From contig JBBIUR010000020.1 of the NCBI GenBank assembly GCA_037440145.1, positions 1 through 61,585 on the forward strand: a stretch of DNA of 61,585 nucleotides. The letters run 5' to 3'. The notes beneath the pieces are model-generated. The model saw only the letters and a program-made list of their open reading frames with translations. It was not told the origin of the DNA and did no database searches. This stretch comes from Myxococcales bacterium. GTDB taxonomy: Bacteria; Desulfobacterota; Binatia; HRBIN30; BPIQ01. A program made the translations under genes and the position numbers. Below are positions 9,946 through 20,453 of this stretch, piece by piece (position 1 is the stretch's first letter; each line of letters starts with the position of its first letter).

Positions 9946-10881
9946 TCATGCGTCGAGCCGCAGGAACTCGATAGCGTTTTCTCTCAGGACCCGCCGCTTC
10001 GTCTCCTCGCGAATCGGCAGCTCCAGGAACTGCTGCAGGCAGGGTTCCAGGCCCAATCCGTTCGTTCCGAAGAGCACCTTGTCGCGGCCGCGCGAGCTGT
10101 CCATGAAGCGGACCTGCCGCTCGTCCAGTGAGCGCGGAAAGTACGCCGAGATATCGCCGTACACGTTAGGATGGCGCCAGAGCATCGAGCACCACTCGTC
10201 GATCCAGGGCCAGCCGGTATGCGAGAGGTTGATCCGGAGGTTGGGGAAGTCGATCGCGACGCAGTCGACGAGCATCGGGCGGCCGACGTCCGAGGGGAGT
10301 ACCTCCGCGGAATGCCCGACCTGCATCCCGACGGCAATCCCGAGCTCGTTGCACTTCGCGTACAGCGGGTAGCAGCGCCGGTCGTTGGGCGGGAGCCCGA
10401 ACGAGAGCGGGTGGAACCATACGTATTTGAACCCGTACTCCTTCACTCCGCGCTCGATCTCCCGCAAGCTCTCCTCGATGCGGAGGGGGTTGTAGCTCGC
10501 CGCGCCGATCAGCCGGCCTTTTCCCTCCGCCACCAGGCGCCCCACGTCGTCGACGGAGTAGTCGAGAATGAGCTTGTGGTGGTAGTAGTACGACCACATC
10601 TTGGTCGCGCAGATCACGATGCGGTCGTAGCCAAGGCGGTCCATGTCGGCGATCAGCTCGGCCACCGAACCGTGCCCGGCCAGCACCCGCGGCCGCCCTT
10701 CGCTGCCGGCCGCCCCCTTCTCCCCTTCGCGGGCCGCGTCGCGAGAGGAGCCGCGGAAGACGGTCTTGAACGTCGTCCGCTTCATGATCTTGAACTCTTC
10801 GTACTGGAACGGGTTCTGGCCCAGGTCGCGCTGGGCTTCGGGCGGATGGTTCATGATGTCGATGGCGCCGATTCGCTCCAT
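9946..10881 (-). CDS. amidohydrolase family 2 (metal-dependent hydrolase/decarboxylase-like)
   Basis: ATG 10881 (MERIGAIDIM) with GGAGG upstream; the 472-aa extended ORF is rejected. Motifs FHPLSFG, LSHTGWPWIDEW and VLFGTN. Confidence 0.7.
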   Translation of the reverse strand: MERIGAIDIMNHPPEAQRDLGQNPFQYEEFKIMKRTTFKTVFRGSSRDAAREGEKGAAGSEGRPRVLAGHGSVAELIADMDRLGYDRIVICATKMWSYYYHHKLILDYSVDDVGRLVAEGKGRLIGAASYNPLRIEESLREIERGVKEYGFKYVWFHPLSFGLPPNDRRCYPLYAKCNELGIAVGMQVGHSAEVLPSDVGRPMLVDCVAIDFPNLRINLSHTGWPWIDEWCSMLWRHPNVYGDISAYFPRSLDERQVRFMDSSRGRDKVLFGTNGLGLEPCLQQFLELPIREETKRRVLRENAIEFLRLDA

Positions 10882-10898: not shown

Positions 10899-12059
10899 CT
10901 AGGTGCCTCGCGGCAAGCCGAGCACTTGTTCGGCGATGATGTTGCGCATGACCTCCGACGTGCCGCCGCCGATCGTGTACGCCCGCGCATCCAGGTACAG
11001 CCCCTGCCAGCGGCCGCGGTCGAGCGCCCGCGGGTTGCCCCGCCCGAGGTGGGCATAGACGCCCTCGATTTCCATGGCCACGTCCATCACGCGCTGGCGC
11101 AGCTCGGACGAGAAGAGCTTTCCGATCGCGGCGACGGGCCCCGGCGGCTCGCCGCGCAGTTGCTGCGTGAGGGTCCGGCAGCCCGTATACCGGAGGCTTT
11201 CCATTTCGATATAGACCTGCGCGAGCCGCTGGCGGGTGATCGGATCGCGGATGCGGCCGGTGGCGGCTGCGAGCCGCACGAGCCGCGCGATTTGCTGCTC
11301 CAGAGCGACCACGCCCGCGAGTCCGGAGCGCTCGAAAGAAAGCGTCGCCTTGGCGATCTTCCATCCCTGGTTCTTTTCCCCCACCAAATTCGCCTTCGGG
11401 ACGCGCACCCCGTCGAGGAACAGCTCGCAGAAGTGGCTCTTGCCCGTCATCTGGCGGATGGGCCGCACGTGCACGCCGGGCGACCGCATGTCGAGCAGCA
11501 AATAGCTGATCCCTTCGTGCTTGGGCGCGTCTGGATCACTGCGGGCGAGCAGGAAGCACCAGTCCGCAATCTGAGCGAGGCTGCTCCACACTTTTTGTCC
11601 CGTGACGACGAAGAAGTCGCCATCTTCGACCGCGCGCGTCCGCAGCGACGCCAGATCGGACCCCGCTCCCGGTTCCGAGAAGCCCTGGCACCAGATCTCC
11701 TCCGCCGTCAGGATTTTCGGCAGGAAGCGGCGTTTCTGCTCTTCGGTGCCGTAGACGATCAGGGCGGGGCCGATGATGTCGAGGCCGAGGGCGGTGATCA
11801 GCGGCGGCGCGCCCGCGCGGGCCAGCTCTTCGTTGAGGATCACCTGCCGCGTGAGCGAGGCGTCCTGCCCCCCGTAGGCGCGCGGCCACGCAATGCCCAC
11901 GAGCCCGGCTTCGTACATCTTGCGCTGCCACGCCTTCGCGTCGCTCAGTGCCTCCGCCCGATCCCTCGCCTTCCGGCGCGCCTCGGGCAAGTGCTCCCGG
12001 AGCCAGCGCCGCACATGCGCCCGGAATGCCTCGTCTTCAGGGCCGAAGGTCAGGTCCAT
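10899..12059 (-). CDS. acyl-CoA dehydrogenase
   Basis: Motifs CQGFSEPGAGSDLASLRTRAVEDGDFFVVTGQKVWSS and C-terminal GGGTSEVMRNIIAE. RBS GAGGAAAAGGGGA lies upstream of ATG 12059. Confidence 0.85.
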   Translation of the reverse strand: MDLTFGPEDEAFRAHVRRWLREHLPEARRKARDRAEALSDAKAWQRKMYEAGLVGIAWPRAYGGQDASLTRQVILNEELARAGAPPLITALGLDIIGPALIVYGTEEQKRRFLPKILTAEEIWCQGFSEPGAGSDLASLRTRAVEDGDFFVVTGQKVWSSLAQIADWCFLLARSDPDAPKHEGISYLLLDMRSPGVHVRPIRQMTGKSHFCELFLDGVRVPKANLVGEKNQGWKIAKATLSFERSGLAGVVALEQQIARLVRLAAATGRIRDPITRQRLAQVYIEMESLRYTGCRTLTQQLRGEPPGPVAAIGKLFSSELRQRVMDVAMEIEGVYAHLGRGNPRALDRGRWQGLYLDARAYTIGGGTSEVMRNIIAEQVLGLPRGT

Positions 12060-12087: not shown

Positions 12088-14043
12088 TCAGAGCAGCCGG
12101 CCGACGTTGGCTCCGTGCTGCGTCGCCTCGGCCAGACCGCGCGGCGCGAAGGCCGAGCCCACTACGTAGAGTTCCGCCACCTTCCCGCGCAGGGCGCGGT
12201 AGAGGCGGTCGTCGGGCTGGCTCCCGAGCGAGAGAACGACGTGGTCGATCTCTTCCAGGCGGCGCTCCTCGCCGGTGTGGACGTCGTACACGATTACCGC
12301 GCGGCCGTCGATCGCGCGCACCCGCGTGGAGGGCCAGGTGCGAACTCCTTGCCGGTGGAGCCAGTAAAAGACGACCCCTTCTGTGTAGCGCTCGATGCGG
12401 CTGCCGAACAAGTGCCACTTGTGGGCGATCGCCACCTCTTTTCCCCGTGCCGCGAGGTAGTCCGCAATGCTGGGCGTTTCCATCCCGTCCTCTTCGGAGA
12501 CGACGAGGACGCGCGCACCGACCTCGGCGCGCCCCAGCAGCACGTCGCGCCCCTGCACCACGTTTGGCTGCTCGGCGCCGGGGACTGACAGCGGCCGCGG
12601 CTCCGATCCGGTGGCCACGACCACCGCATCCGGTGCGAGTTCCAAGACCAACTCCGGAGTGGCCTCGACTCCCATCCGCACGTCGACTCCGAGCCGCCGC
12701 ATCTGCACCTCTTGGTACCGGGGCAGATCCAGAAAGCCCTCGCGCCGCGGCGCGCGCGCCGCCGCCAGCAGTTGCCCTCCTAGCTCCGCGTTGCGCTCGA
12801 GCACGATGACCTCGTGCCCGCGCCCGGCGGCGACGCGCGCGGCCTCCAGGCCTGCGGGCCCGCCGCCGATCACGACCACCCGCTTTCGCTTTTTCGCGGG
12901 CTCGACGCGCGCCCAGGCGCGCTCGTGGCCGATGGTGGGATTGACCGCACACACGGGCGTCTTGCGCTCGCCGTGGATGACGCGGCCGATGCAGGTGTTG
13001 CAGCCGATGCACTTGCGGATCTCGTCGAGGCGCCCCTCCCGCGCCTTGCGCGGAAATTCCGGGTCCGCAATCGACGCCCGCGTCATGCCGATCAGGTCCG
13101 CTTGACCCTCGGCGAGCAAGCGCTCCGCGAGCACCGGGTCGTTGACCCTCCCGGCATAGAGCACGGGCACCGCCACCACCTGCCGGATCTCCGCTGCCGC
13201 GTAGGCGAAGGCCGCCAGGGGGTACTGCATGGGCGGCACGTAGCTCGGCATTCCCCAAGGCGCGCCGACGTCGACGCTCACGTAGTCGATCGGCACCGCG
13301 CTGCAGATCAAGCGCAGCATTTCCTTCATATCCTCGAGGGTGTACCCACCGTCCTTGTACTCGTCGGCGCACACCCGTAGCCCAACGTTGAGACTGCGCG
13401 GGACGCGGTCGCGGATGCGGCGCACCGCTTCGACGACGAAGCGGACGCGGTTTTCTGGACTTCCGCCCCAGCGGTCCGCGCGGCGGTTCGTGTAAGGGGA
13501 AAGGAACCACTGGGGCAGCGTCTCGTGCGCGCAGTGAATTTCCACGGCGTCGGCCCCGGCAGCGTGGAACTTTTCCGCCGCTTGCCAGTAGGTGTCGAGC
13601 ATGAACTCGATCTCCTCCTCGGTGAGTTCGTGGGGCACGTGGTCATAGAGCAGGCCGATCGGCACCGGAGAGGGTCCCATCAAGGACTGCAGGTGGGTGA
13701 GCTGCATCACGCAGACTGCGCCGCACCCGTGGATGGCGTCCGTGAACTCCTTCACCCGGGCGACGAAGTCCGGATGGTTGTAGATCGCGAAGCGGATGGC
13801 GGCCGCCCCAGGCGTGAATTCCTCCGGACGCCCGGGCGGCAGCGGCGTCGGCAACACCCACGTCTGGCTTCCGATCCAGCCGACGCCGCCGCGCGCTTTT
13901 TGCAGGTGGTGCTCGAGGAAGGGCTCGTCGGGCAGGCCGTCGAGACGCCCCGCGTTGATGGAATAGGTGGTCTCGGCGATGCGGTTGGGGACGGTCATCG
14001 TGCCAACCGTGATCGGGGTGAACAGGTACTGAAAGTCAGCCAC
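12088..14043 (-). CDS. 2,4-dienoyl-CoA reductase (FadH)-like protein: Old Yellow Enzyme domain, 4Fe-4S site and FAD/NAD(P) domain
   Basis: Candidate GTG 14043 preceded by GGAGG with an 8-nt spacer. Motifs HCAHETLPQWFLSPYTNRRADRWGGSPENRVRF (OYE), CIGCNTCIGRV...C (Fe-S) and VVVIGGGPAGLEAA (dinucleotide fold). No stop codon separates it from the upstream EtfB-like frame. Confidence 0.75.
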   Translation of the reverse strand: MADFQYLFTPITVGTMTVPNRIAETTYSINAGRLDGLPDEPFLEHHLQKARGGVGWIGSQTWVLPTPLPPGRPEEFTPGAAAIRFAIYNHPDFVARVKEFTDAIHGCGAVCVMQLTHLQSLMGPSPVPIGLLYDHVPHELTEEEIEFMLDTYWQAAEKFHAAGADAVEIHCAHETLPQWFLSPYTNRRADRWGGSPENRVRFVVEAVRRIRDRVPRSLNVGLRVCADEYKDGGYTLEDMKEMLRLICSAVPIDYVSVDVGAPWGMPSYVPPMQYPLAAFAYAAAEIRQVVAVPVLYAGRVNDPVLAERLLAEGQADLIGMTRASIADPEFPRKAREGRLDEIRKCIGCNTCIGRVIHGERKTPVCAVNPTIGHERAWARVEPAKKRKRVVVIGGGPAGLEAARVAAGRGHEVIVLERNAELGGQLLAAARAPRREGFLDLPRYQEVQMRRLGVDVRMGVEATPELVLELAPDAVVVATGSEPRPLSVPGAEQPNVVQGRDVLLGRAEVGARVLVVSEEDGMETPSIADYLAARGKEVAIAHKWHLFGSRIERYTEGVVFYWLHRQGVRTWPSTRVRAIDGRAVIVYDVHTGEERRLEEIDHVVLSLGSQPDDRLYRALRGKVAELYVVGSAFAPRGLAEATQHGANVGRLL

Positions 14044-14901
14044 GGTTCGGACCTCCGCTAGGACCCAGGAATCCCCGCTGTTCCAGGAAGCGCAGCTATA
14101 CCCCGCTACGGCGGACGGGTCGCCTACGAGGAAGCTGCTGCCCTGCTTGCGCTGCAAGCCGCCGCGCATCAGATAGGCCACGCGGTCGCGGGCCGAGAGC
14201 CGCGAATCGGGGGCAGCGACGCGCTTGGGCCGTGGTCTGGGCAGCTCGACCGCGAGCACCTTCCACGGGGACTCTCCCGCAGGTGCGCAGCTCGCCTCGT
14301 CCACCGCAGCAGCCGCGGCCCGCCGCAGCGCGCCCGCGGATACGTAGTGCGGCTCGGCGAGGGCGCTGTCCGCGCCCACCACGGCGGGAAGCCTGCAGCG
14401 CACGCGCTCGCGCCCACCGCGGTCCACGCGCCGCTCCGCTTCCAGCCACCCCGCGGCCGGTAGCCGCAGCTCGACTGCTCGAGTCACCAGCGGCCAATCC
14501 ATTTCTTCGGCGAGCCGCGCCGGGAAGAGGCCCGATCCGCCGTCCGCGCTGTACGTCCCGCACAGGACGAGGTCGGCGGGGTCGGCCGAGAGCAGCGCGG
14601 CAACGGCGTGCGCCGCAACCATGGGATCGAGAGGTTCGGGGCAGCGGATGTGAACAGCGCGGTGTGCGCCTGCCGCGAGGGCAAAGCGCAGCGCTGCCGG
14701 GGCCTCCGGCCCCCCGGCGCTGATCGCGGTCACGGCGCCCCCCAGCTCGCGGCAGAGCTGCAGGGCCTTTTCCAGCGCTGCCCGCTCGGCGGGCGGCACG
14801 CACGTGACCGGCCAGGGAGAGTCCTGCTCGATCCTGCCGTTCACGACGCGCAGAGGGACGCTGGGATCCAGGGTGTGCTTGACACAGACCGCGATCTTCA
14901 T
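14044..14901 (-). CDS. etfB: electron transfer flavoprotein beta-subunit-like protein that reads in frame into the FadH-like gene without its own stop codon
   Basis: ATG 14901; N-terminus MKIAVCVKHTLDP is typical of EtfB. About 286 codons precede the internal GGAGG-GTG of the next domain. The whole ORF 12088-14901 is continuous (937 aa). Confidence 0.65.
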
Positions 14902-14950
14902 CGGGCGCCCCCGCTTTCCCGTAAAGCCGCGCAGTGCGATTCGAGGCGGT

Positions 14951-16906
14951 TCACAGACATGCCTCCGCGAGCACCTCGGCCACGTCTCGAACGGTCACGC
15001 GCCCCTCGAGACCTCGTTCCGCCGGCACTGGAGCGAGCATGATCTTGCAAAACGGGCAGGCCGTGGCGATCCCCTCTGCGCCCGTCGCCCGCGCCTCCTC
15101 GAAGCGCAGATCGGGGATCCGCTGGCCCACTCGGATGTCCACGAGCACCTGCCCGCCGCCGCCGCCGCAGCACAGCGCGCGCGCTCCGCTGCGCGGCATC
15201 TCGCGCACCGAGCAACCCGGGACCGCTGCCAGCAGCGCGCGCGGTGCGTCTCCGAGGCCATGGTACCGAGTCAGATAGCAGGGATCGTGGAAGGTGAGCA
15301 CGCGCGCCGCGGGCCGTGCGGGTTGCAGCCTGCCCTCGGCCACCAGTTGCACCAGAAAAGCCGTGTGGTGGACGATTTCGATCTCTCCCAGCTCGTATTC
15401 GCGCCGGAAGGTGTTCAGACAGTGCGGGCAGTGCGTCACGATCCGCCGCGGGCGGTGCGAGAGGAGGGCGCGAGTGTTTGCCGCGGCCAGGTTCTGGAAG
15501 AGCCCTTCGTCGCCCACGCGGCGCGCAAAGTCCCCGCTGCAGCGCTCCCGGGAGCCGAGGACGCCAAAAGACACCCCCGCTTTGCGGAGCAGGCGCAGCG
15601 TCGCCTCGGCGACCCGGCGCGCTTGCTCGTCGCAGGCCGCCGCGCAGCCGATCCAGTAAATGGTTTCGCAGGCCTCGCCCTCGGAAAGGGGGGGCACGCC
15701 AAGCGCTTCCAGCCACTGCCCGCGCTCGCCCGGCGCGTTGCCCCAGAGGTTCCCCTTGCCCGCGAGGCTTTCCATTGCCCGCGCCGCAGCAGCGGGCACG
15801 TCGCCGCGCTCCACCAGATAGCGGCGCAAGTCGACGATGCGGTCGATGTGGTGGATCGCGACCGGGCACACTTCTTCGCACGCGCCACATGTCGTGCAGG
15901 ACCAGAGCTCGTCCGGATCCACCGCCGTGCCGACCAGCGCGGCGTCCGTGCCGTCGCCCGCTTCGCGCAGGTGCTGCAGGAGCCCCATGGGCGAGAGGGG
16001 CCTTTCGGCCAGGGTGGCGGGGCACACGGCGGAGCACCGGCCGCAGCCCGTGCAGGTGTCGAGATCGAGGAGTTGCTTCCAGCTAAAAGCTCCCAGCGTC
16101 CCGGCCGGCGGCAGCTCGGGCGCCGCGGGGCGCAGGCCGCCCAGCGGGCGGGCCCGCAGCAGGATGTTCGCCGGGGCAGCGAGGAGATGGAGCAGCTGGG
16201 AGAATGGGAGCGCGAGGAAAAAAGCCGCCACGGCGACGACATGCGCGGCCCACAGGGCCCGGTGGACCGCGCGCGGATCGGCGCTCCCTTCGAGCGCGGC
16301 GACCGCCAGGCCGAAGAGCCAGCCGCCGACCGATACTCGCTCGTGCGCGGGCCAGTGGTCAGCGGCGATTCGCGCGCCCTCGACCAGAAAGCCCGTGAGG
16401 CCCACGGCGTACAGGGCGAGGAGCGCAATGTTGTCGGCGCGCCGGCGGTAGGTCGGGGCGGCTCCGGGCTGTGGGGCCAACCGCCGGTACAGGAGGATCG
16501 AGAGGCCGGCCAGGAACAGAAGCCCGAAGAAATCCGCCGTAAACGCGAACAGCAGGTAGAAACGCCCGCGGAGCAGGGGCACACCGAGGTCGTGGTCGAT
16601 TGCGGTGAGCACCGTGGCGAGGAAGGCCACCAGGAAGCCCGAGACGACCATTTTGTGGGCGATGCCCGCCGCGCGGTCCGTGGAGCCGATCTGCCGCTGT
16701 GCGACAGCGCGTTGGGCGAAATCTCGCACCCGCTCCCGGAAGGGAAGTTGCTGTGTCTCGGGCTGGCCGCGCGCCCAGCGGCGCGCGCGTGCGGCGACGC
16801 GCAGCCCGGCAATGACCGCGGACCCTAGCGTCGCCGCGTACATGCCGGCCTGCAGCCACGGGGGGATGTTCCCCAGAATTTCCCGGCCCGCGGTCGCGGC
16901 GTTCAT
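14951..16906 (-). CDS. membrane-bound Fe-S oxidoreductase with CCG domains (HdrD/DsrK-like; resembles the ETF-associated EMO type)
   Basis: The N-terminal ~260 aa is hydrophobic with several predicted helices. Then CTGCGRCSAVCP and CTTCGACEEVCP (two 4Fe-4S motifs), then cysteine-rich CCG-type repeats (HCPHC, CCGGGG, CPFC). Its ATG 16906 overlaps the etfA TGA as ATGA. Confidence 0.75.
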   Translation of the reverse strand: MNAATAGREILGNIPPWLQAGMYAATLGSAVIAGLRVAARARRWARGQPETQQLPFRERVRDFAQRAVAQRQIGSTDRAAGIAHKMVVSGFLVAFLATVLTAIDHDLGVPLLRGRFYLLFAFTADFFGLLFLAGLSILLYRRLAPQPGAAPTYRRRADNIALLALYAVGLTGFLVEGARIAADHWPAHERVSVGGWLFGLAVAALEGSADPRAVHRALWAAHVVAVAAFFLALPFSQLLHLLAAPANILLRARPLGGLRPAAPELPPAGTLGAFSWKQLLDLDTCTGCGRCSAVCPATLAERPLSPMGLLQHLREAGDGTDAALVGTAVDPDELWSCTTCGACEEVCPVAIHHIDRIVDLRRYLVERGDVPAAAARAMESLAGKGNLWGNAPGERGQWLEALGVPPLSEGEACETIYWIGCAAACDEQARRVAEATLRLLRKAGVSFGVLGSRERCSGDFARRVGDEGLFQNLAAANTRALLSHRPRRIVTHCPHCLNTFRREYELGEIEIVHHTAFLVQLVAEGRLQPARPAARVLTFHDPCYLTRYHGLGDAPRALLAAVPGCSVREMPRSGARALCCGGGGGQVLVDIRVGQRIPDLRFEEARATGAEGIATACPFCKIMLAPVPAERGLEGRVTVRDVAEVLAEACL

Positions 16907-17895
16907 GCAGCCTGCCTCTGCGCGAGCTGGCGCAACAGCGCCGGCATGAGCTCGCGGAGATCCGCCACCACTTTCAGGTCAGCGAGTTTGAAGATCTCGG
17001 CATTCTTGTCCCGGTTGATCGCCACGATGCACTCCGACCCTCTCATCCCGAGGGTGTGGTGGCTGGCGCCGGAGATTCCCGCTGCAATGTACAAGCGCGG
17101 CGCGACGATCCGCCCCGTCTGACCCACCTGCCGCTCGAACGGCAGCCACTTCGCGTCGACCACGGGGCGCGAGGCGGCCAGCGCCGCTCCGAGGCGATCG
17201 GCAAGCTCTTGGTACAGCTCCAGCGCTTCGCGCGCGCCGACGCCGCGGCCCACCGCCACGATCCGCTCGGCTTCGGTGATGTCGATCGCGCGCGGGTCCG
17301 CGGGGATATGGGCGACGGATTCGACGCGGGCTGGGGCGCTTTCGAGGGGCGCCAATTCCTGCACCTCGACGGCACGGCGGGGTGCCGGCTTCCCGATGCC
17401 CGCCGCCCCGGGGTGCAGGGCCGCCAGCGCGGGCCGGGACTCGAGGCGCATGCGCGCGTAGAGCTTGCCGCCGTAAATCAACCGCGCGGCCTCCACAGTG
17501 CCGTCGGGTCCGAAGCGCACCCAGTTGCAATCGGAGGCGAGCGCCAGGCGGCAGCGGGCCGCAAGCCGGCAAGCAATCTCGCGCCCCAGCGCGGTCGCTG
17601 CGAACAGCAGCAGGCGGGGCGGCTCTGGGTCGAGGGCGCGCTCGAGCACGGCCGCGCAGCGCTCTGCGGAGCGCGCGTGCGCCTCCGAACCCCGGGCGAG
17701 GAGCAGGCGATCCGCGCCGTACTGGCGCGCCGCTTCGACCACGCCCTCGGGGGCGGGCCCGAAGGCGACGAGCGCGACGCGCCCGCCCGGCCCATCGGCC
17801 AGCTCTCGCGCGTCGCACAGTGCCTCGAGGCTCGCGGCGGCGAGCTTCCCGCCGTCGATCTCGCCGACCACCCAGATGTCGTTCCCTTCCGGCAC
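16903..17895 (-). CDS. etfA: electron transfer flavoprotein alpha subunit
   Basis: C-terminal FAD signature PRLYIAAGISGASHHTLGMRGSECIVAINRDKNAEIF. Start GTG 17895 has no clear RBS; the internal GTG at WVVGE is an alternative. Confidence 0.8.
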   Translation of the reverse strand: MPEGNDIWVVGEIDGGKLAAASLEALCDARELADGPGGRVALVAFGPAPEGVVEAARQYGADRLLLARGSEAHARSAERCAAVLERALDPEPPRLLLFAATALGREIACRLAARCRLALASDCNWVRFGPDGTVEAARLIYGGKLYARMRLESRPALAALHPGAAGIGKPAPRRAVEVQELAPLESAPARVESVAHIPADPRAIDITEAERIVAVGRGVGAREALELYQELADRLGAALAASRPVVDAKWLPFERQVGQTGRIVAPRLYIAAGISGASHHTLGMRGSECIVAINRDKNAEIFKLADLKVVADLRELMPALLRQLAQRQAA

Positions 17896-17923: not shown

Positions 17924-18475
17924 CTACGGCCGCCGCACCCCGACGTTCACCCAGCTGATCATCTTCAGGGGGCGCAGTCGGATGGCTACGCGGTTGGGCG
18001 TGAACAGGAGCCGGTGCATCGTGCGCTGGGCAGCTTCATCGGAGTAGTAGCGCCGCGCGTGCTCCCAGCATACCTGCTCGATGGTGTTCCGGTCCTCCAC
18101 GATCTCCGCGTGCGCTTTAATGCACACGCCGCCCCCGAAGGGCAATTTCAGCCCGGTGGTCGAAAGGCACACCGAGCAGCGCGGATCGCGGCGGTAGGCC
18201 CGCTCCTTGGCGCGCCCGCGAACCGTCGTCGTCCAGATCTCGCCATCGCGCACGCAGTACAGGTGCACCGTGACGATGGGAAACCCGTCCCGCGTGAGGT
18301 GCGAGATGAACATCTCGCGCCCCGCCGCGATCAGTTGCTCGATCTGTTCGGGCGAGAGCTGCGTCTCGCCCTTCGGCTTCGCGGGATCTCCCCACTTGTC
18401 GACAAGCTCCGGATCGAGGGTCTGGAGCCGCTCGGTGTGGATGTATGCCTTCTTTTCCGTGCTCTCCTCGGCCAT
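17924..18475 (-). CDS. pyridoxamine 5'-phosphate oxidase family / flavin- or F420-binding split-barrel protein
   Basis: ATG 18475 with GGGAGGAAA upstream. The segment FISHLTRDGFPIVTVHLYCVRDGEIWTTT...RAKERAYRRDPRCSVC looks like the PNPOx-like fold; the call is from general resemblance only. Confidence 0.5.
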   Translation of the reverse strand: MAEESTEKKAYIHTERLQTLDPELVDKWGDPAKPKGETQLSPEQIEQLIAAGREMFISHLTRDGFPIVTVHLYCVRDGEIWTTTVRGRAKERAYRRDPRCSVCLSTTGLKLPFGGGVCIKAHAEIVEDRNTIEQVCWEHARRYYSDEAAQRTMHRLLFTPNRVAIRLRPLKMISWVNVGVRRP

Positions 18476-18487
18476 CGGCTTTCCTCC

Positions 18488-19519
18488 CTAGGGGTTATTC
18501 GTCGCCCGCCGGTCAGCGGAGCGCTTGCGAAAGGCCGGCAGGACCTCGCGCGCGAACAGTTCCTTCTGGCCCGTGGCGACGAACATGGCCTCGACGCCCA
18601 GGCGCTCGTAGCGCTCGATCTCGGCGGCGACCATCTCGGGCGTGCCCGCGAAGATGCTCTCGACGAACTGCGCGTAGAGCGGGTGGGTTCGCGGCGGGTT
18701 GTAGAGGTGGCGCCCCGCTTCGTCGACCAGGTAGCCGAACCCGAGAATGTGCTCGTCGTAGAACGCGTGCAGCACTTTCTCCCGGAGCGCGAGCGCCTGC
18801 TCGCGAGTGGCGGCAATGCAGAAGTCTTTGAACACCGCCACGCGCAAGCGCTCGGGCGGAATTCCGGCCTCGCGCCCCGCGTCCCGGTACGCCTGCACAC
18901 ACTCGGCGGCCCGCTCGTAGGTACAGGTCGCGAGCCAATAGGGTAGCCCGGCCGAGCCGGCGCGCTGGGCGGCGCGCTTCGTGTTCCCCCCGCAAAACCA
19001 TAGCGGCGGGTGGGGCTTCTGCACCGGGCGCGGCCACACCGCGGCGTTCTCGAAGCAGTAGTGCTCGCCGCGGAATGTGAACCGCTCCTGGCTGAGGGCG
19101 AGGCGCAAGAGCTCGATCATCTCGACCAGGCGCTTGCCGCGCGTTTTCTTCTCGCTCGCCAGCCCGTCGAACTCCAGCGGGCGGTATCCCATCCCCAGCC
19201 CCAGGATCAGGCGGCCGCCGGACAGGCGGTCGAGCGTGGCTGCGTCCTCCGCGATCCGCAGCGGATCGTAGAGCGGGAGCAGCAGTGCCCCGGTGACGAG
19301 CTTGATGCGCCGCGTGCTCAGCGCGAGCCCGGCGAGCGCCACGAGCGGCGCGGGGCAGAAGCCGTCGTACGTGAAATGGTGCTCCGAGGCGCTGAACGCG
19401 TCGAAGCCCATTTCCTCGAGCGCCTGGGCGCTGTCAACCAGTTGCGCGTAGTCGAGCGCCAGGCTCCGCGGCGCCGCCCGCGATTTCGCAAGCCCGCCGA
19501 TGCCGCTCCAGAACTCCAT
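18488..19519 (-). CDS. LLM-class flavin/F420-dependent oxidoreductase
   Basis: ATG 19519 (MEFWSG); the extended 400-aa ORF is rejected. Motifs SASEHHF, LSGGRLILGLGMGY and PVQKPHPPLW. Confidence 0.75.
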   Translation of the reverse strand: MEFWSGIGGLAKSRAAPRSLALDYAQLVDSAQALEEMGFDAFSASEHHFTYDGFCPAPLVALAGLALSTRRIKLVTGALLLPLYDPLRIAEDAATLDRLSGGRLILGLGMGYRPLEFDGLASEKKTRGKRLVEMIELLRLALSQERFTFRGEHYCFENAAVWPRPVQKPHPPLWFCGGNTKRAAQRAGSAGLPYWLATCTYERAAECVQAYRDAGREAGIPPERLRVAVFKDFCIAATREQALALREKVLHAFYDEHILGFGYLVDEAGRHLYNPPRTHPLYAQFVESIFAGTPEMVAAEIERYERLGVEAMFVATGQKELFAREVLPAFRKRSADRRATNNP

Positions 19520-19541
19520 CGCTTTCTCCCGCCCACTTTCG

Positions 19542-20453
19542 CTATGCCTGCAAGTGGGGTTGCACCTCGCTCGCCAGGCGCCGCAGAGACGCGGCGATCG
19601 CGGCGTGTGGCGCGCCGGGAAAGGGGATGCGCCACACGATGTGGTTCGCCCCCGTCGCCCCATGTAGCCCGTGCGCGCGCTCGAGCGCATCCGGGGCCAG
19701 CCCCTCGGGGCCCAGTGGTAGGTCGGCGATCACGGCGAGCTCCACCTCGCTGCGCGCGCGCCCGGCTCGCCGCAGCCCTTCTTCGTAGGCATCCGCAGCG
19801 GCTTGCAGAGAGGGAAGGGGCGCCGGCGGCAAGACGAGCGAATAGCCGCGCTCCGCGGCAAGCGGCACGAGCCAGCGCGCGCTGGCGAGAATCCAGATCG
19901 GGGGTCGCGGCTGCTGCAGGGGTTTCGGGGTCACGGTCAGAAAATCGGGCAGTTCAGGGCCCCGCTCCCACTGCGGCCGATATGGCTCGGCGCCGAATCG
20001 CTTGCGCCGCAGGCCGGTGCCGGGCGCCGTGTGTGCCGGAAACCGGTAGTGCGTGCCGCCATAAGAGAACTCGTCGAACGCCCAGGCGGCAGCGATCAGG
20101 TCGAGCGCCTCCTGCAGGTGCTCCCGTACATCTGCCTCGGCGCCATCGGCTTCTAGGGCCGCGCCGAAGTTCAAGCGGCCTCCCGAGAGGAGGTCGACGA
20201 GCGCGAAATCTTCTGCCGTGCGCACGGGGTGTTCGGCGCCAAGTTGTTTGAATGTGCCGAGCCGGATGGCTGCGGTCCGCTTGGCGAGCGCTGCCAGCAC
20301 GATTGCCGGGGAACCCAGGGTGTCGGGCTGCCCGCGCCGGTCGGCGATCCAAACGCTGTCGATGCCGAGCCGGTCTGCCAGGCCGATTTGCTCCACGAGC
20401 TGCGAGAGCTGCTCGGGCGTGCCGCCGCTGCCGTAAAAGATGCCGACGCGCAT
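19542..20453 (-). CDS. LLM-class flavin-dependent oxidoreductase
   Basis: Motifs MRVGIFYG, IDSVWIAD, LSGGRLNFG and PLQQPRPPIW show the luciferase-like layout. Confidence 0.65.
   Translation of the reverse strand: MRVGIFYGSGGTPEQLSQLVEQIGLADRLGIDSVWIADRRGQPDTLGSPAIVLAALAKRTAAIRLGTFKQLGAEHPVRTAEDFALVDLLSGGRLNFGAALEADGAEADVREHLQEALDLIAAAWAFDEFSYGGTHYRFPAHTAPGTGLRRKRFGAEPYRPQWERGPELPDFLTVTPKPLQQPRPPIWILASARWLVPLAAERGYSLVLPPAPLPSLQAAADAYEEGLRRAGRARSEVELAVIADLPLGPEGLAPDALERAHGLHGATGANHIVWRIPFPGAPHAAIAASLRRLASEVQPHLQA

What the first reader, a model, noticed from the sequence alone, without database searches (positions are those of the whole stretch)
12088..17895. Split etfA / membrane Fe-S / etfB order, with EtfB reading in frame into a FadH-like reductase
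Seen: the gene for a membrane Fe-S/CCG oxidoreductase (16906-14951) sits between etfA and the EtfB-like gene and overlaps etfA as ATGA.
The EtfB-like frame (14901-14044) has no stop codon. It continues into a complete OYE + Fe-S + FAD/NAD(P) reductase, giving one 937-codon ORF.
However, a GGAGG followed 8 nt later by GTG (14043) sits exactly at the domain boundary (...WVLAEVRT-VADFQYLFTPITVG...). Both a fusion protein and a separately initiated reductase are therefore possible.
Established: in syntrophic fatty-acid oxidisers, etfAB is adjacent to a membrane Fe-S oxidoreductase thought to pass electrons to menaquinone. etfB and etfA are normally adjacent, and EtfB is ~250-265 aa.
Inference: this may be a hard-wired electron path from enoyl/dienoyl-CoA reductase or ACADs through ETF to the quinone pool.
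Basis: partly seen in the sequence, partly recalled or inferred. Interest (0 to 1): 0.6.

Follow-up and report, generated by a model that had tools for sequence, protein, structure and literature searches.

The report
EtfB-reductase fusion is assembly artefact
The apparent fusion of an electron-carrier subunit to a reductase comes from a short garbled stretch in this assembly; what is really there is an ordinary operon of separate genes, with an unusual but conserved gene order, that feeds electrons from breakdown enzymes to the membrane quinone pool.

Summary
The 937-codon ORF (12088-14901, minus strand), the ATGA overlap of etfA with the membrane Fe-S gene, and the GGAGG-8 nt-GTG at 14043 are all present as described. 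The fusion itself is not supported.

- **Other frame:** it holds the conserved EtfB C-terminus, with a TGA overlapping the GTG.
- **Independent contig:** a contig from a public run adds one base behind 14094 and changes 7 bases in 14093-14166. This gives a 288-aa EtfB with its own stop.
- **Orthologs:** 3 of 3 orthologous junctions have separate genes. All 30 aligned EtfB orthologs (281-308 aa) carry the C-terminal motif that the window's in-frame tail lacks.
- **No fused homologs:** none was found.

The gene order is real. In this rare ETF subtype etfA precedes etfB. An EtfD/EMO-type ETF:menaquinone oxidoreductase gene lies between them in 5 of 7 genomes and is absent in 2. The reductase belongs to a FadH/TMADH-family subgroup without the NAD(P)H glycine motif, so it probably exchanges electrons with the ETF; this step is inferred. 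Interest is low to moderate.

The parts
16903..17895 (-). etfA (330 aa), electron transfer flavoprotein alpha subunit; comes first in this ETF subtype
   Evidence: Pfam ETF 7-182 and ETF_alpha 205-285. 67% identical to the G010 ortholog. Best NCBIfam models score below their cut-offs.
14951..16906 (-). EtfD/EMO-type membrane ETF:menaquinone oxidoreductase (651 aa), inserted between etfA and etfB; ATGA overlap with etfA
   Evidence: Pfam Nitrate_red_gam 117-252, 4Fe-4S dicluster 280-351, two CCG stretches. Matches M. smegmatis EtfD 9ojn_A at 298 bits, E 1e-87. In that alignment the heme histidines and the Fe-S cysteines/histidine named in PMC13083937 section 8 are all matched.
14036..14901 (-). 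etfB; true product about 288 aa, ending at TGA 14038-14036 once the base missing behind 14094 is counted
   Evidence: Pfam ETF 36-202. The other frame holds the conserved C-terminus. The read-supported version is 288 aa. Orthologs are 281-308 aa.
14093..14166 (.). Stretch where the window disagrees with an independent contig (1 missing base, 7 substitutions); core 14093-14102 causes the frameshift
   Evidence: tables 3, 4 and 8. MAFFT against G010 also places a 1-nt gap in the window here.
14052..14056 (-). GGAGG ribosome-binding site, 8 nt before the reductase GTG
   Evidence: Read directly.
12088..14043 (-). FadH/NCR/TMADH-family Fe-S flavoenzyme (651 aa; OYE barrel, 4Fe-4S motif, FAD-type Rossmann, glycine-less second dinucleotide site), started independently at GTG 14043
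   Evidence: Pfam. PDB matches NCR 251 bits, FadH 238, TMADH 201. Homologs of exactly 651 aa. Motif survey.
10899..12059 (-). Acyl-CoA dehydrogenase (386 aa), 28 nt downstream of the reductase
   Evidence: Three ACAD Pfam domains. Best NCBIfam match is pimC_large at 286 bits, below cut-off. 73% identical to the syntenic G010 gene.
17924..18475 (-). PNPOx-fold protein (183 aa) directly upstream of etfA, syntenic in G010, G650, G658 and G662
   Evidence: Pfam PNPOx_N. TIGR03618 at 53 bits, below cut-off. Synteny.
18488..20453 (-). Two luciferase-like monooxygenase-fold genes upstream (18488-19492 and 19542-20453), syntenic in G010
   Evidence: Pfam Bac_luciferase; synteny.
9946..10800 (-). Amidohydrolase_2-family gene downstream of the ACAD (start approximate), syntenic in G650 and G658
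   Evidence: Pfam Amidohydro_2; 79-83% identity in L108 and L109.

Best explanation
The 937-codon ORF is produced by a short corrupted stretch in this assembly (14093-14166, with one base missing behind 14094). In the organism, etfB is its own gene of about 288 codons. Its TGA overlaps the GTG start of a separately translated 651-aa FadH/TMADH-family Fe-S flavoenzyme, an arrangement that suggests translational coupling. The genes form one minus-strand operon: two luciferase-like genes, a PNPOx-fold gene, etfA, EtfD/EMO, etfB, the reductase, an acyl-CoA dehydrogenase and an amidohydrolase. Proposed mechanism (inferred): the acyl-CoA dehydrogenase, and probably the FadH-like enzyme, pass electrons to the EtfAB heterodimer. 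The heterodimer docks on the cytoplasmic CCG/Fe-S domain of the EtfD/EMO protein. Electrons then run through its Fe-S clusters and heme b to menaquinone.
For: Shown:
- The window's other frame reads LRFLEQRGFLGPSGGPNRG* and ends in GTGGCTGA.
- MAFFT against the G010 ortholog puts a 1-nt gap in the window at this spot.
- An independent contig of run X1 carries the extra base and 7 substitutions, while 4 of 5 X1 pieces equal the window.
- With these differences EtfB is 288 aa, and 5 of the 6 changed residues become identical to G010's.
- 3 of 3 orthologous junctions are separate genes: ATGGCTGA in G010 and G658, and TGA + 4 nt + ATG in G650.
- 30 of 30 aligned orthologs carry the C-terminal motif that the in-frame tail lacks.
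- No fused form was seen: 0 EtfB+OYE among the 2 hits of 515-1640 aa; 31 of 33 EtfB orthologs are 281-308 aa; 0 of 120 listed reductase homologs (625-684 aa) have an ETF domain.
- The membrane protein is homologous to EtfD with all cofactor ligands aligned.

Inferred: ETF as the partner of the reductase. This rests on the glycine-less second dinucleotide site, shared by the window and 27 of 27 sampled homologs and aligned to the equivalent TMADH segment, and on conserved adjacency to etfB in 4 of 4 genomes of the order where the downstream side is visible.
Against: - The correcting contig has low depth (3.1), and the tool warns that a difference in one contig under depth 5 may be an error.
- X1 may be the sample the window was assembled from, so it is an independent assembly but not independent DNA.
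- Raw reads could not be inspected; only Logan contigs were available.
- A real frameshifted allele in part of the population cannot be excluded.
- No direct evidence ties the reductase to ETF; its FAD-type domain could still accept electrons from another donor.
- The window's EtfB is unusually divergent: it departs from 24 of 109 conserved columns, against 0-10 in the orthologs.
Confidence: 0.88

Rival explanations
1. The frameshift is a real mutation carried by this strain or by a subpopulation. EtfB would then lose its conserved C-terminal helix and be read through into the reductase. The reductase would probably still be made on its own from the GGAGG/GTG start.
For: The window's sequence exists in a deposited assembly. 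The correcting contig is shallow, at depth 3.1. The window's EtfB is more divergent than its orthologs, with 24 against 0-10 departures from conserved columns, which could mean relaxed constraint.
Against: Eight differences fall within 74 nt while 867 nt in the four other pieces are identical; this looks like a local error, not strain divergence. The differences are non-synonymous and break the frame. The alternative version restores ortholog residues at 5 of 6 sites. The lost motif is nearly invariant in 30 orthologs. The 19 other departures in EtfB lie where X1 contigs agree with the window and are mostly conservative.
Confidence: 0.08
2. A functional, selected EtfB-reductase fusion protein that hard-wires ETF to a FadH-like enzyme.
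For: An uninterrupted 937-codon frame in the window.
Against: - No fused homolog was found in three protein searches.
- All 3 orthologous junctions have stops.
- The 19-residue linker has no counterpart in any ortholog and replaces a nearly invariant motif.
- An intact ribosome-binding site and start codon sit exactly at the boundary.
Confidence: 0.02
3. Programmed ribosomal frameshifting restores the EtfB C-terminus from the sequence as given.
For: The conserved C-terminus lies in the -1 frame, and a GGGG run lies just upstream.
Against: A -1 slip on the GGGG run leads directly into a TAG in that frame (gta TAG ctg). Any shift would therefore have to occur within the 2-3 nt after that TAG, where there is no slippery sequence. 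Orthologs encode the protein in one frame.
Confidence: 0.01

Closest known systems
Mycobacterial EtfD (Rv0338c / M. smegmatis EtfD, PDB 9ojn), the ETF:menaquinone link of beta-oxidation
   Same: Homologous over the membrane and soluble parts (298 bits, E 1e-87). The NarI-like heme b domain, two 4Fe-4S motifs and two CCG domains are present. The residues that PMC13083937 (section 8 read) names as ligands (His78, His241, Cys301/304/307/311, Cys412/415/418/422, Cys503/538/581/584, His583, Cys637/672/673/709/712) are all matched in the alignment, as read by eye.
   Different: 651 aa against 1042 aa: the roughly 265-residue disordered C-terminal region of the mycobacterial protein is absent. Here the gene sits inside the etf operon, between etfA and etfB. 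That etfD is unlinked to etfBA in mycobacteria is recalled, not checked here.
EtfAB plus DUF224/EMO cluster of syntrophic fatty-acid oxidisers (Syntrophomonas wolfei Swol_0696-0698)
   Same: An ETF and a membrane Fe-S/CCG oxidoreductase are encoded together and thought to pass acyl-CoA dehydrogenase electrons to menaquinone (PMC3582634, passages read).
   Different: The order there is etfB, etfA, DUF224. Here it is etfA, EMO, etfB. In a background of 80 generic etfB loci, 69 have etfB followed by etfA, 5 have an EMO-like gene within 4 kb (never upstream of etfB), and none has this order. The EMO biochemistry paper (Agne et al. 2021, PMC8501807) was not held; I saw only its reference entry in PMC13083937.
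Trimethylamine dehydrogenase (TMADH, PDB 1djn/2tmd) and its ETF
   Same: Same three-domain architecture and 4Fe-4S motif (201 bits). The second dinucleotide site lacks the glycine motif, and the window's segment aligns with the TMADH segment. That TMADH hands its electrons to an ETF is textbook knowledge, recalled.
   Different: The cysteine that links FMN covalently in TMADH aligns with a serine here. The role of that cysteine (Cys30) is recalled. The substrate is unlikely to be an amine, given the flanking acyl-CoA dehydrogenase.
2,4-dienoyl-CoA reductase FadH (PDB 1ps9) and 2-naphthoyl-CoA reductase NCR (PDB 6qkg)
   Same: The best structural-sequence matches (238 and 251 bits): OYE barrel, Fe-S motif and FAD-type Rossmann fold.
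   Different: No GxGxxG at the NADPH site: the FadH alignment breaks off there, and NCR is also degenerate there. The active-site string is HCAHE(T/A)LP, in place of the HGAHGYL seen in the two paralog rows and recalled as the classical OYE form. The tyrosine position is therefore not kept.
Mycofactocin-associated EtfA/EtfB and FadH/OYE oxidoreductase 2 (NCBIfam NF038209, TIGR04503, TIGR03997)
   Same: These are the top-scoring NCBIfam models for three of the genes. The mft_etfB model is 290 positions long, like this 288-aa EtfB.
   Different: All three score below their curated cut-offs (152.6/240, 113.6/200, 535/793). The genome has no MftC radical-SAM match over cut-off (best 69 against 265 bits; the genome is 94.9% complete).

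Membership tests
   An independent X1 contig adds a base behind 14094 and yields a stop at 14038-14036.
   0 EtfB+OYE proteins among the hits (each scored about 8000 candidates only). 3 of 3 orthologous junctions have stops.
Electron transfer flavoprotein (EtfA/EtfB) | EtfA with an ETF N-domain and the ETF_alpha FAD-binding domain; EtfB with an ETF domain | tested here: met
   Pfam PF01012 and PF00766 in etfA, PF01012 in etfB, all above the gathering scores.
Electron transfer flavoprotein (EtfA/EtfB) | Conserved EtfB C-terminal segment of this subtype (..EI.RFLE.(R/K)GF..) | tested here: inconclusive
   Absent from the window's in-frame reading. Present in its other frame and in the read-supported version.
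EtfD/EMO ETF:menaquinone oxidoreductase | NarI-like membrane domain with two heme b histidines | tested here: met
   Pfam Nitrate_red_gam 117-252. The histidines aligned to EtfD His78 and His241 are conserved.
EtfD/EMO ETF:menaquinone oxidoreductase | Two cubane 4Fe-4S motifs and two CCG domains with their cysteine and histidine ligands | tested here: met
   Pfam Fer4 and CCG x2. All ligands listed in PMC13083937 section 8 are matched in the alignment.
EtfD/EMO ETF:menaquinone oxidoreductase | ETF-dependent menaquinone reduction | not testable with these tools
   Needs biochemistry.
2,4-dienoyl-CoA reductase (FadH) | OYE FMN barrel, 4Fe-4S cysteine motif and FAD Rossmann fold | tested here: met
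   Pfam Oxidored_FMN and Pyr_redox_2. The C-x2-C-x2-C...C motif and GGGPAG..E motif are conserved.
2,4-dienoyl-CoA reductase (FadH) | NADPH-binding glycine motif in the third domain | tested here: not met
   VVSEEDGMETPS in the window and a glycine-less form in 27 of 27 sampled homologs. The G658 paralog keeps GAGEVG.
2,4-dienoyl-CoA reductase (FadH) | Active-site tyrosine in the ..G-Y-L.. string | tested here: not met
   HCAHETL here; FadH has EGYL at the aligned place.
Trimethylamine dehydrogenase type (ETF-dependent) | Cysteine for the covalent FMN link | tested here: not met
   TMADH ..VPHCIGAG aligns with ..TTYSINAG in the window. The role of the cysteine is recalled.
Trimethylamine dehydrogenase type (ETF-dependent) | ETF as physiological electron acceptor | not testable with these tools
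   Only context and the loss of the NAD(P)H motif speak for it.
Mycofactocin-associated ETF / OYE set | Scores above the NCBIfam curated cut-offs | tested here: not met
   535/793, 113.6/200 and 152.6/240 bits.
Mycofactocin-associated ETF / OYE set | Mycofactocin maturase MftC in the genome | tested here: not met
   Best TIGR03962 match is 69 bits against a cut-off of 265 in G000 (94.9% complete).

The most novel reading that the evidence does not exclude
A lineage-restricted module, found so far only in the window's order and one distant genus of its phylum, combines four things: a divergent etfA-first ETF; an EtfD/EMO gene that is inserted between the two ETF genes in some genomes and absent there in others; an acyl-CoA dehydrogenase; and a distinct FadH/TMADH-family subgroup that has lost its NAD(P)H site and uses ETF as its redox partner. 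This would extend ETF-linked chemistry from acyl-CoA dehydrogenases and amine dehydrogenases to an enoyl/dienoyl-type OYE enzyme. It would connect that enzyme to menaquinone in an organism whose neighbouring operons were earlier read as oxygen-independent steroid degradation.
Probability: 0.45. Interest if true: 0.45.

Novelty: new variant of a known kind. Interest (0 to 1): 0.22.

Why it matters
Practical value:
- It stops a false EtfB-FadH fusion from entering annotation and domain-architecture databases.
- It shows that this low-coverage assembly can carry short garbled stretches that merge neighbouring, translationally coupled genes.

Biological value:
- The operon documents a conserved alternative layout of the ETF-to-quinone route, with etfA first and the EtfD/EMO gene optionally embedded.
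- It points to a well-defined FadH-family subgroup (glycine-less NAD(P)H site, HCAHE(T/A)LP active-site string) whose electron partner is open and could be tested with the co-encoded ETF.

Tried and rejected
- **Complex prediction:** Complex prediction on the reductase plus EtfB residues 1-267, with alignments A3 and A2, gave no verdict (score 0.00). It counts neither for nor against binding.
- **Genome-collection scan:** The search for related loci in genome contigs with the two-sequence EtfB alignment returned only generic EtfB relatives at 28-37% identity. I used them only as a background for gene order.
- **Mycofactocin link:** rejected. All three NCBIfam models score below cut-off, and no MftC match is over cut-off.
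- **Programmed frameshifting:** rejected from the sequence. A -1 slip on the GGGG run meets a TAG at once.
- **Runs X2 and X3:** they gave nothing usable. X2 laid 0 records. X3 laid one 22.9-kb contig of another organism that matched only two stretches of about 20 nt.
- **Literature:** searches for the Steroidobacter homolog's locus tag, for OYE + ETF in Steroidobacter and for ETF group classification gave nothing bearing on this cluster. The EMO paper PMC8501807 is not held.
- **Not done:** no supplementary files were consulted. No structure was predicted, because the fusion to be modelled is not supported.


Full report
**1. Observation.**
The window does contain a 937-codon ORF at 12088-14901 on the minus strand. 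Its Pfam domains are ETF (residues 36-202), Oxidored_FMN (293-626) and Pyr_redox_2 (674-904). The membrane Fe-S gene (14951-16906) has Nitrate_red_gam, 4Fe-4S dicluster and two CCG matches, and overlaps etfA (16903-17895) by ATGA. GGAGG at 14056-14052 is followed 8 nt later by the GTG at 14043. As a description of the window, the finding is accurate.

**2. The frame is broken, not fused.**
- **The in-frame tail looks wrong.** The last in-frame EtfB residues (YSCASWNSGDSWVLAEVRT) do not look like an EtfB end.
- **The other frame holds the real end.** Translating all frames shows that another frame, directly after a TAG, reads LRFLEQRGFLGPSGGPNRG*. It stops at a TGA that overlaps the reductase start as GTGGCTGA.
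- **The closest ortholog has separate genes.** Among 30 relatives, genome G010 has the closest ortholog (51% identity) in a syntenic cluster. Its EtfB is 289 aa and ends ...VAAEIVRFLEERGFSGERRGGGNG*. Its reductase starts MADFDYLF, with an ATGGCTGA overlap.
- **The DNA alignment shows a missing base.** A MAFFT alignment of the two junctions places a single-base gap in the window inside tatagc-tgcgcttcc.

**3. Independent sequence.**
- **Available runs.** One public run (X1, a subsurface metagenome held as Logan contigs) holds 0.59 of the sampled words of 13400-14800. It may be the source sample.
- **What X1 shows.** It gave five pieces. Four are identical to the window (13485-13670, 13693-13915, 14325-14573, 14566-14774).
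- **The differing piece.** The fifth (14010-14235, 227 nt, depth 3.1) has one base put in behind 14094. It also has substitutions at 14093, 14096, 14098, 14100, 14102, 14126 and 14166.
- **Effect of the differences.** Applying them in a script gives a 288-aa EtfB that ends at the TGA overlapping the GTG. Six residues change: 246, 259, 267, 268, 269 and 270. Five become identical to the G010 residue at the aligned place (E, A, E, I, V). The sixth (R to S) meets a T in G010.
- **Why this is not chance.** Random errors in a shallow contig would not recreate conserved ortholog residues. The contig is therefore the biologically sensible version, and the window carries the fault.
- **Other runs.** X2 laid nothing. 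X3 laid only two stretches of about 20 nt from an unrelated 22.9-kb contig.

**4. Wider comparison.**
- **EtfB orthologs.** A protein search with G010's EtfB found 33 proteins at E <= 1e-20. Of these, 31 are 281-308 aa; the other two are a 256-aa partial and a 193-aa fragment.
- **C-terminal motif.** I aligned 30 of them with the window. I dropped P0016 as a near-duplicate, P0032 as partial and P0035 as a fragment. All 30 end with a nearly invariant ..FVEG....VA.EI.RFLE.(R/K)GF.. and then stop. The window's in-frame tail has nothing of this.
- **More junctions.** G658 has the ATGGCTGA overlap, and G650 has TGA, 4 nt, then ATG. With G010, 3 of 3 junctions are separate genes.
- **Search for fusions by the EtfB part.** Scoring residues 1-267 against proteins of 515-1640 aa found only 2 hits, both EtfB-EtfA fusions of 575 and 613 aa.
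- **Search for fusions by the reductase.** Its 120 best-listed homologs are 625-684 aa and none lists an ETF domain. Many of the closest are exactly 651 aa, the length from the GTG.
- **Caveat.** Each of these searches scored only about 8000 candidates.

**5. Gene order.**
- **Rarity.** The ETF subtype is rare. It turned up in 5 of 401 genomes of the class sample at E <= 1e-40 and in 3 of 401 of the phylum sample at E <= 1e-35. Both counts include the window's own genome.
- **EMO between etfA and etfB.** Seven genomes carry the subtype: G000, G010, G650, G658, G662, G044 and G086. In G000, G010 and G044, EMO lies between etfA and etfB. G650 has the same order across a contig break: contig C66 ends with PNPOx, etfA, EMO and the first codons of etfB, and C241 continues with etfB, reductase, ACAD and amidohydrolase. 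G086 shows EMO followed by etfB before its contig ends.
- **No EMO there.** In G658 and G662, etfA is followed directly by etfB. G658's best EMO-like gene is elsewhere, at 36% identity.
- **Summary of the order.** etfA precedes etfB in 6 of 6 genomes where this can be seen. EMO lies directly before etfB in 5 of 7.
- **Background.** Among 80 generic etfB loci, 69 have etfB followed by etfA. Of the other 11, 8 have under 800 nt of downstream sequence. Five have an EMO-like gene within 4 kb, never upstream of etfB. None has an OYE gene within 4 kb.
- **Published order.** In Syntrophomonas wolfei the order is etfB, etfA, DUF224 (PMC3582634, passages read).
- **Position of the reductase.** It follows etfB in 4 of 4 genomes of the window's order where the downstream side is visible (G000, G010, G650, G658). 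In G044 a 32%-identical OYE enzyme lies upstream of etfA instead.

**6. What the parts are.**
- **Membrane protein.** It is a homolog of M. smegmatis EtfD (9ojn_A, 298 bits). PMC13083937 (abstract, section 8 and a term search read) describes EtfD as five transmembrane helices with heme b and a menaquinone site, two cubane 4Fe-4S clusters, and CCG domains holding a linear 3Fe-4S and a noncubane 4Fe-4S cluster. Every ligand named there is matched in the alignment. The window's protein lacks the long disordered C-terminus.
- **Reductase.** It is closest to NCR, FadH, TMADH and histamine dehydrogenase.
- **Lost NAD(P)H motif.** Its second dinucleotide site reads RVLVVSEEDGMETPS. This aligns with the glycine-less TMADH segment.
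- **Motif survey.** I surveyed 30 rows: the window, 27 of the 120 listed homologs spread over 49-90% identity, and two paralogs from loci. The window and all 27 homologs lack GxGxxG there. They also carry HCAHE(T/A)LP-like active-site strings.
- **Paralogs.** The G658 paralog next door keeps GAGEVG and HGAHGYL.
- **NCBIfam.** The best models are the mycofactocin-associated ETF and OYE families, but all score below cut-off. No MftC match is over cut-off in the genome.

**7. Mechanism.**
Shown by homology:
- an EtfAB pair;
- an EtfD-type wire to menaquinone;
- an acyl-CoA dehydrogenase and a FadH-family Fe-S flavoenzyme in one tightly packed operon.

Inferred:
- the ACAD reduces ETF (textbook);
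- the FadH-like enzyme, which lacks an NAD(P)H site, also exchanges electrons with ETF, as TMADH does (recalled);
- ETF is reoxidised by EtfD/EMO.

The direction of the FadH-like reaction and its substrate are open.

**8. Context.**
Earlier notes of this scan (AI notes) read neighbouring parts of the window as oxygen-independent steroid degradation in a Binatia bacterium. I did not test those readings. Source names of orthologous proteins do say Candidatus Binatia. A 50%-identical reductase homolog is from Steroidobacter denitrificans.

**9. Verdict.**
The headline fusion is an assembly-level artefact: confidence 0.88, with 0.08 for a real frameshifted allele. The real feature is a variant layout of a known ETF-to-quinone system, with a FadH-family partner of unknown substrate. 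Interest is 0.22.

Noticed in passing
window 14036-14901: Apart from the corrupted tail, the window's EtfB is unusually divergent. It departs from 24 of 109 columns that are at least 85% conserved in 30 orthologs; the orthologs depart at 0-10. It is only about 48-51% identical to them, while the neighbouring reductase, ACAD, EtfA and EMO are 63-77% identical to G010's. Five of the 24 departures are in the corrupted tail. The other 19 lie where the X1 contigs agree with the window.
   Followed up: partly
L108 5248-7179 (G658): G658 has a second FadH/OYE paralog (34% identical) between the orthologous reductase and the ACAD. It keeps the classical GAGEVG dinucleotide motif and the HGAHGYL active-site string. 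It could be the NAD(P)H-linked counterpart of the glycine-less enzyme.
   Followed up: partly
relatives' genomes, table; also G000:C246:4393-4884: Many EtfB-like matches in relatives and in the window's own genome lie in open frames of 610-810 aa. Two database proteins of 575 and 613 aa combine ETF and ETF_alpha domains. This may indicate genuine EtfB-EtfA fusions in this lineage, or merely long open frames in GC-rich DNA.
   Followed up: no
P0129: A 663-aa homolog of the reductase at 50% identity is annotated from Steroidobacter denitrificans (ACG33_10790), an anaerobic steroid degrader. No paper in the held library mentions this locus tag.
   Followed up: partly
L013 4656-4659 and 6596-6599 (G010) versus window 14902-14950: In G010 the junctions etfA/EMO and EMO/etfB are both 4-nt ATGA overlaps. 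In the window EMO and etfB are separated by a 49-nt spacer.
   Followed up: no
window 17924-20453: Two luciferase-like monooxygenase-fold genes and a PNPOx-fold gene (nearest NCBIfam model: the TIGR03618 F420-dependent family, below cut-off) lie directly upstream of etfA. They are syntenic in G010. This hints at a deazaflavin- or flavin-dependent step in the same pathway.
   Followed up: no
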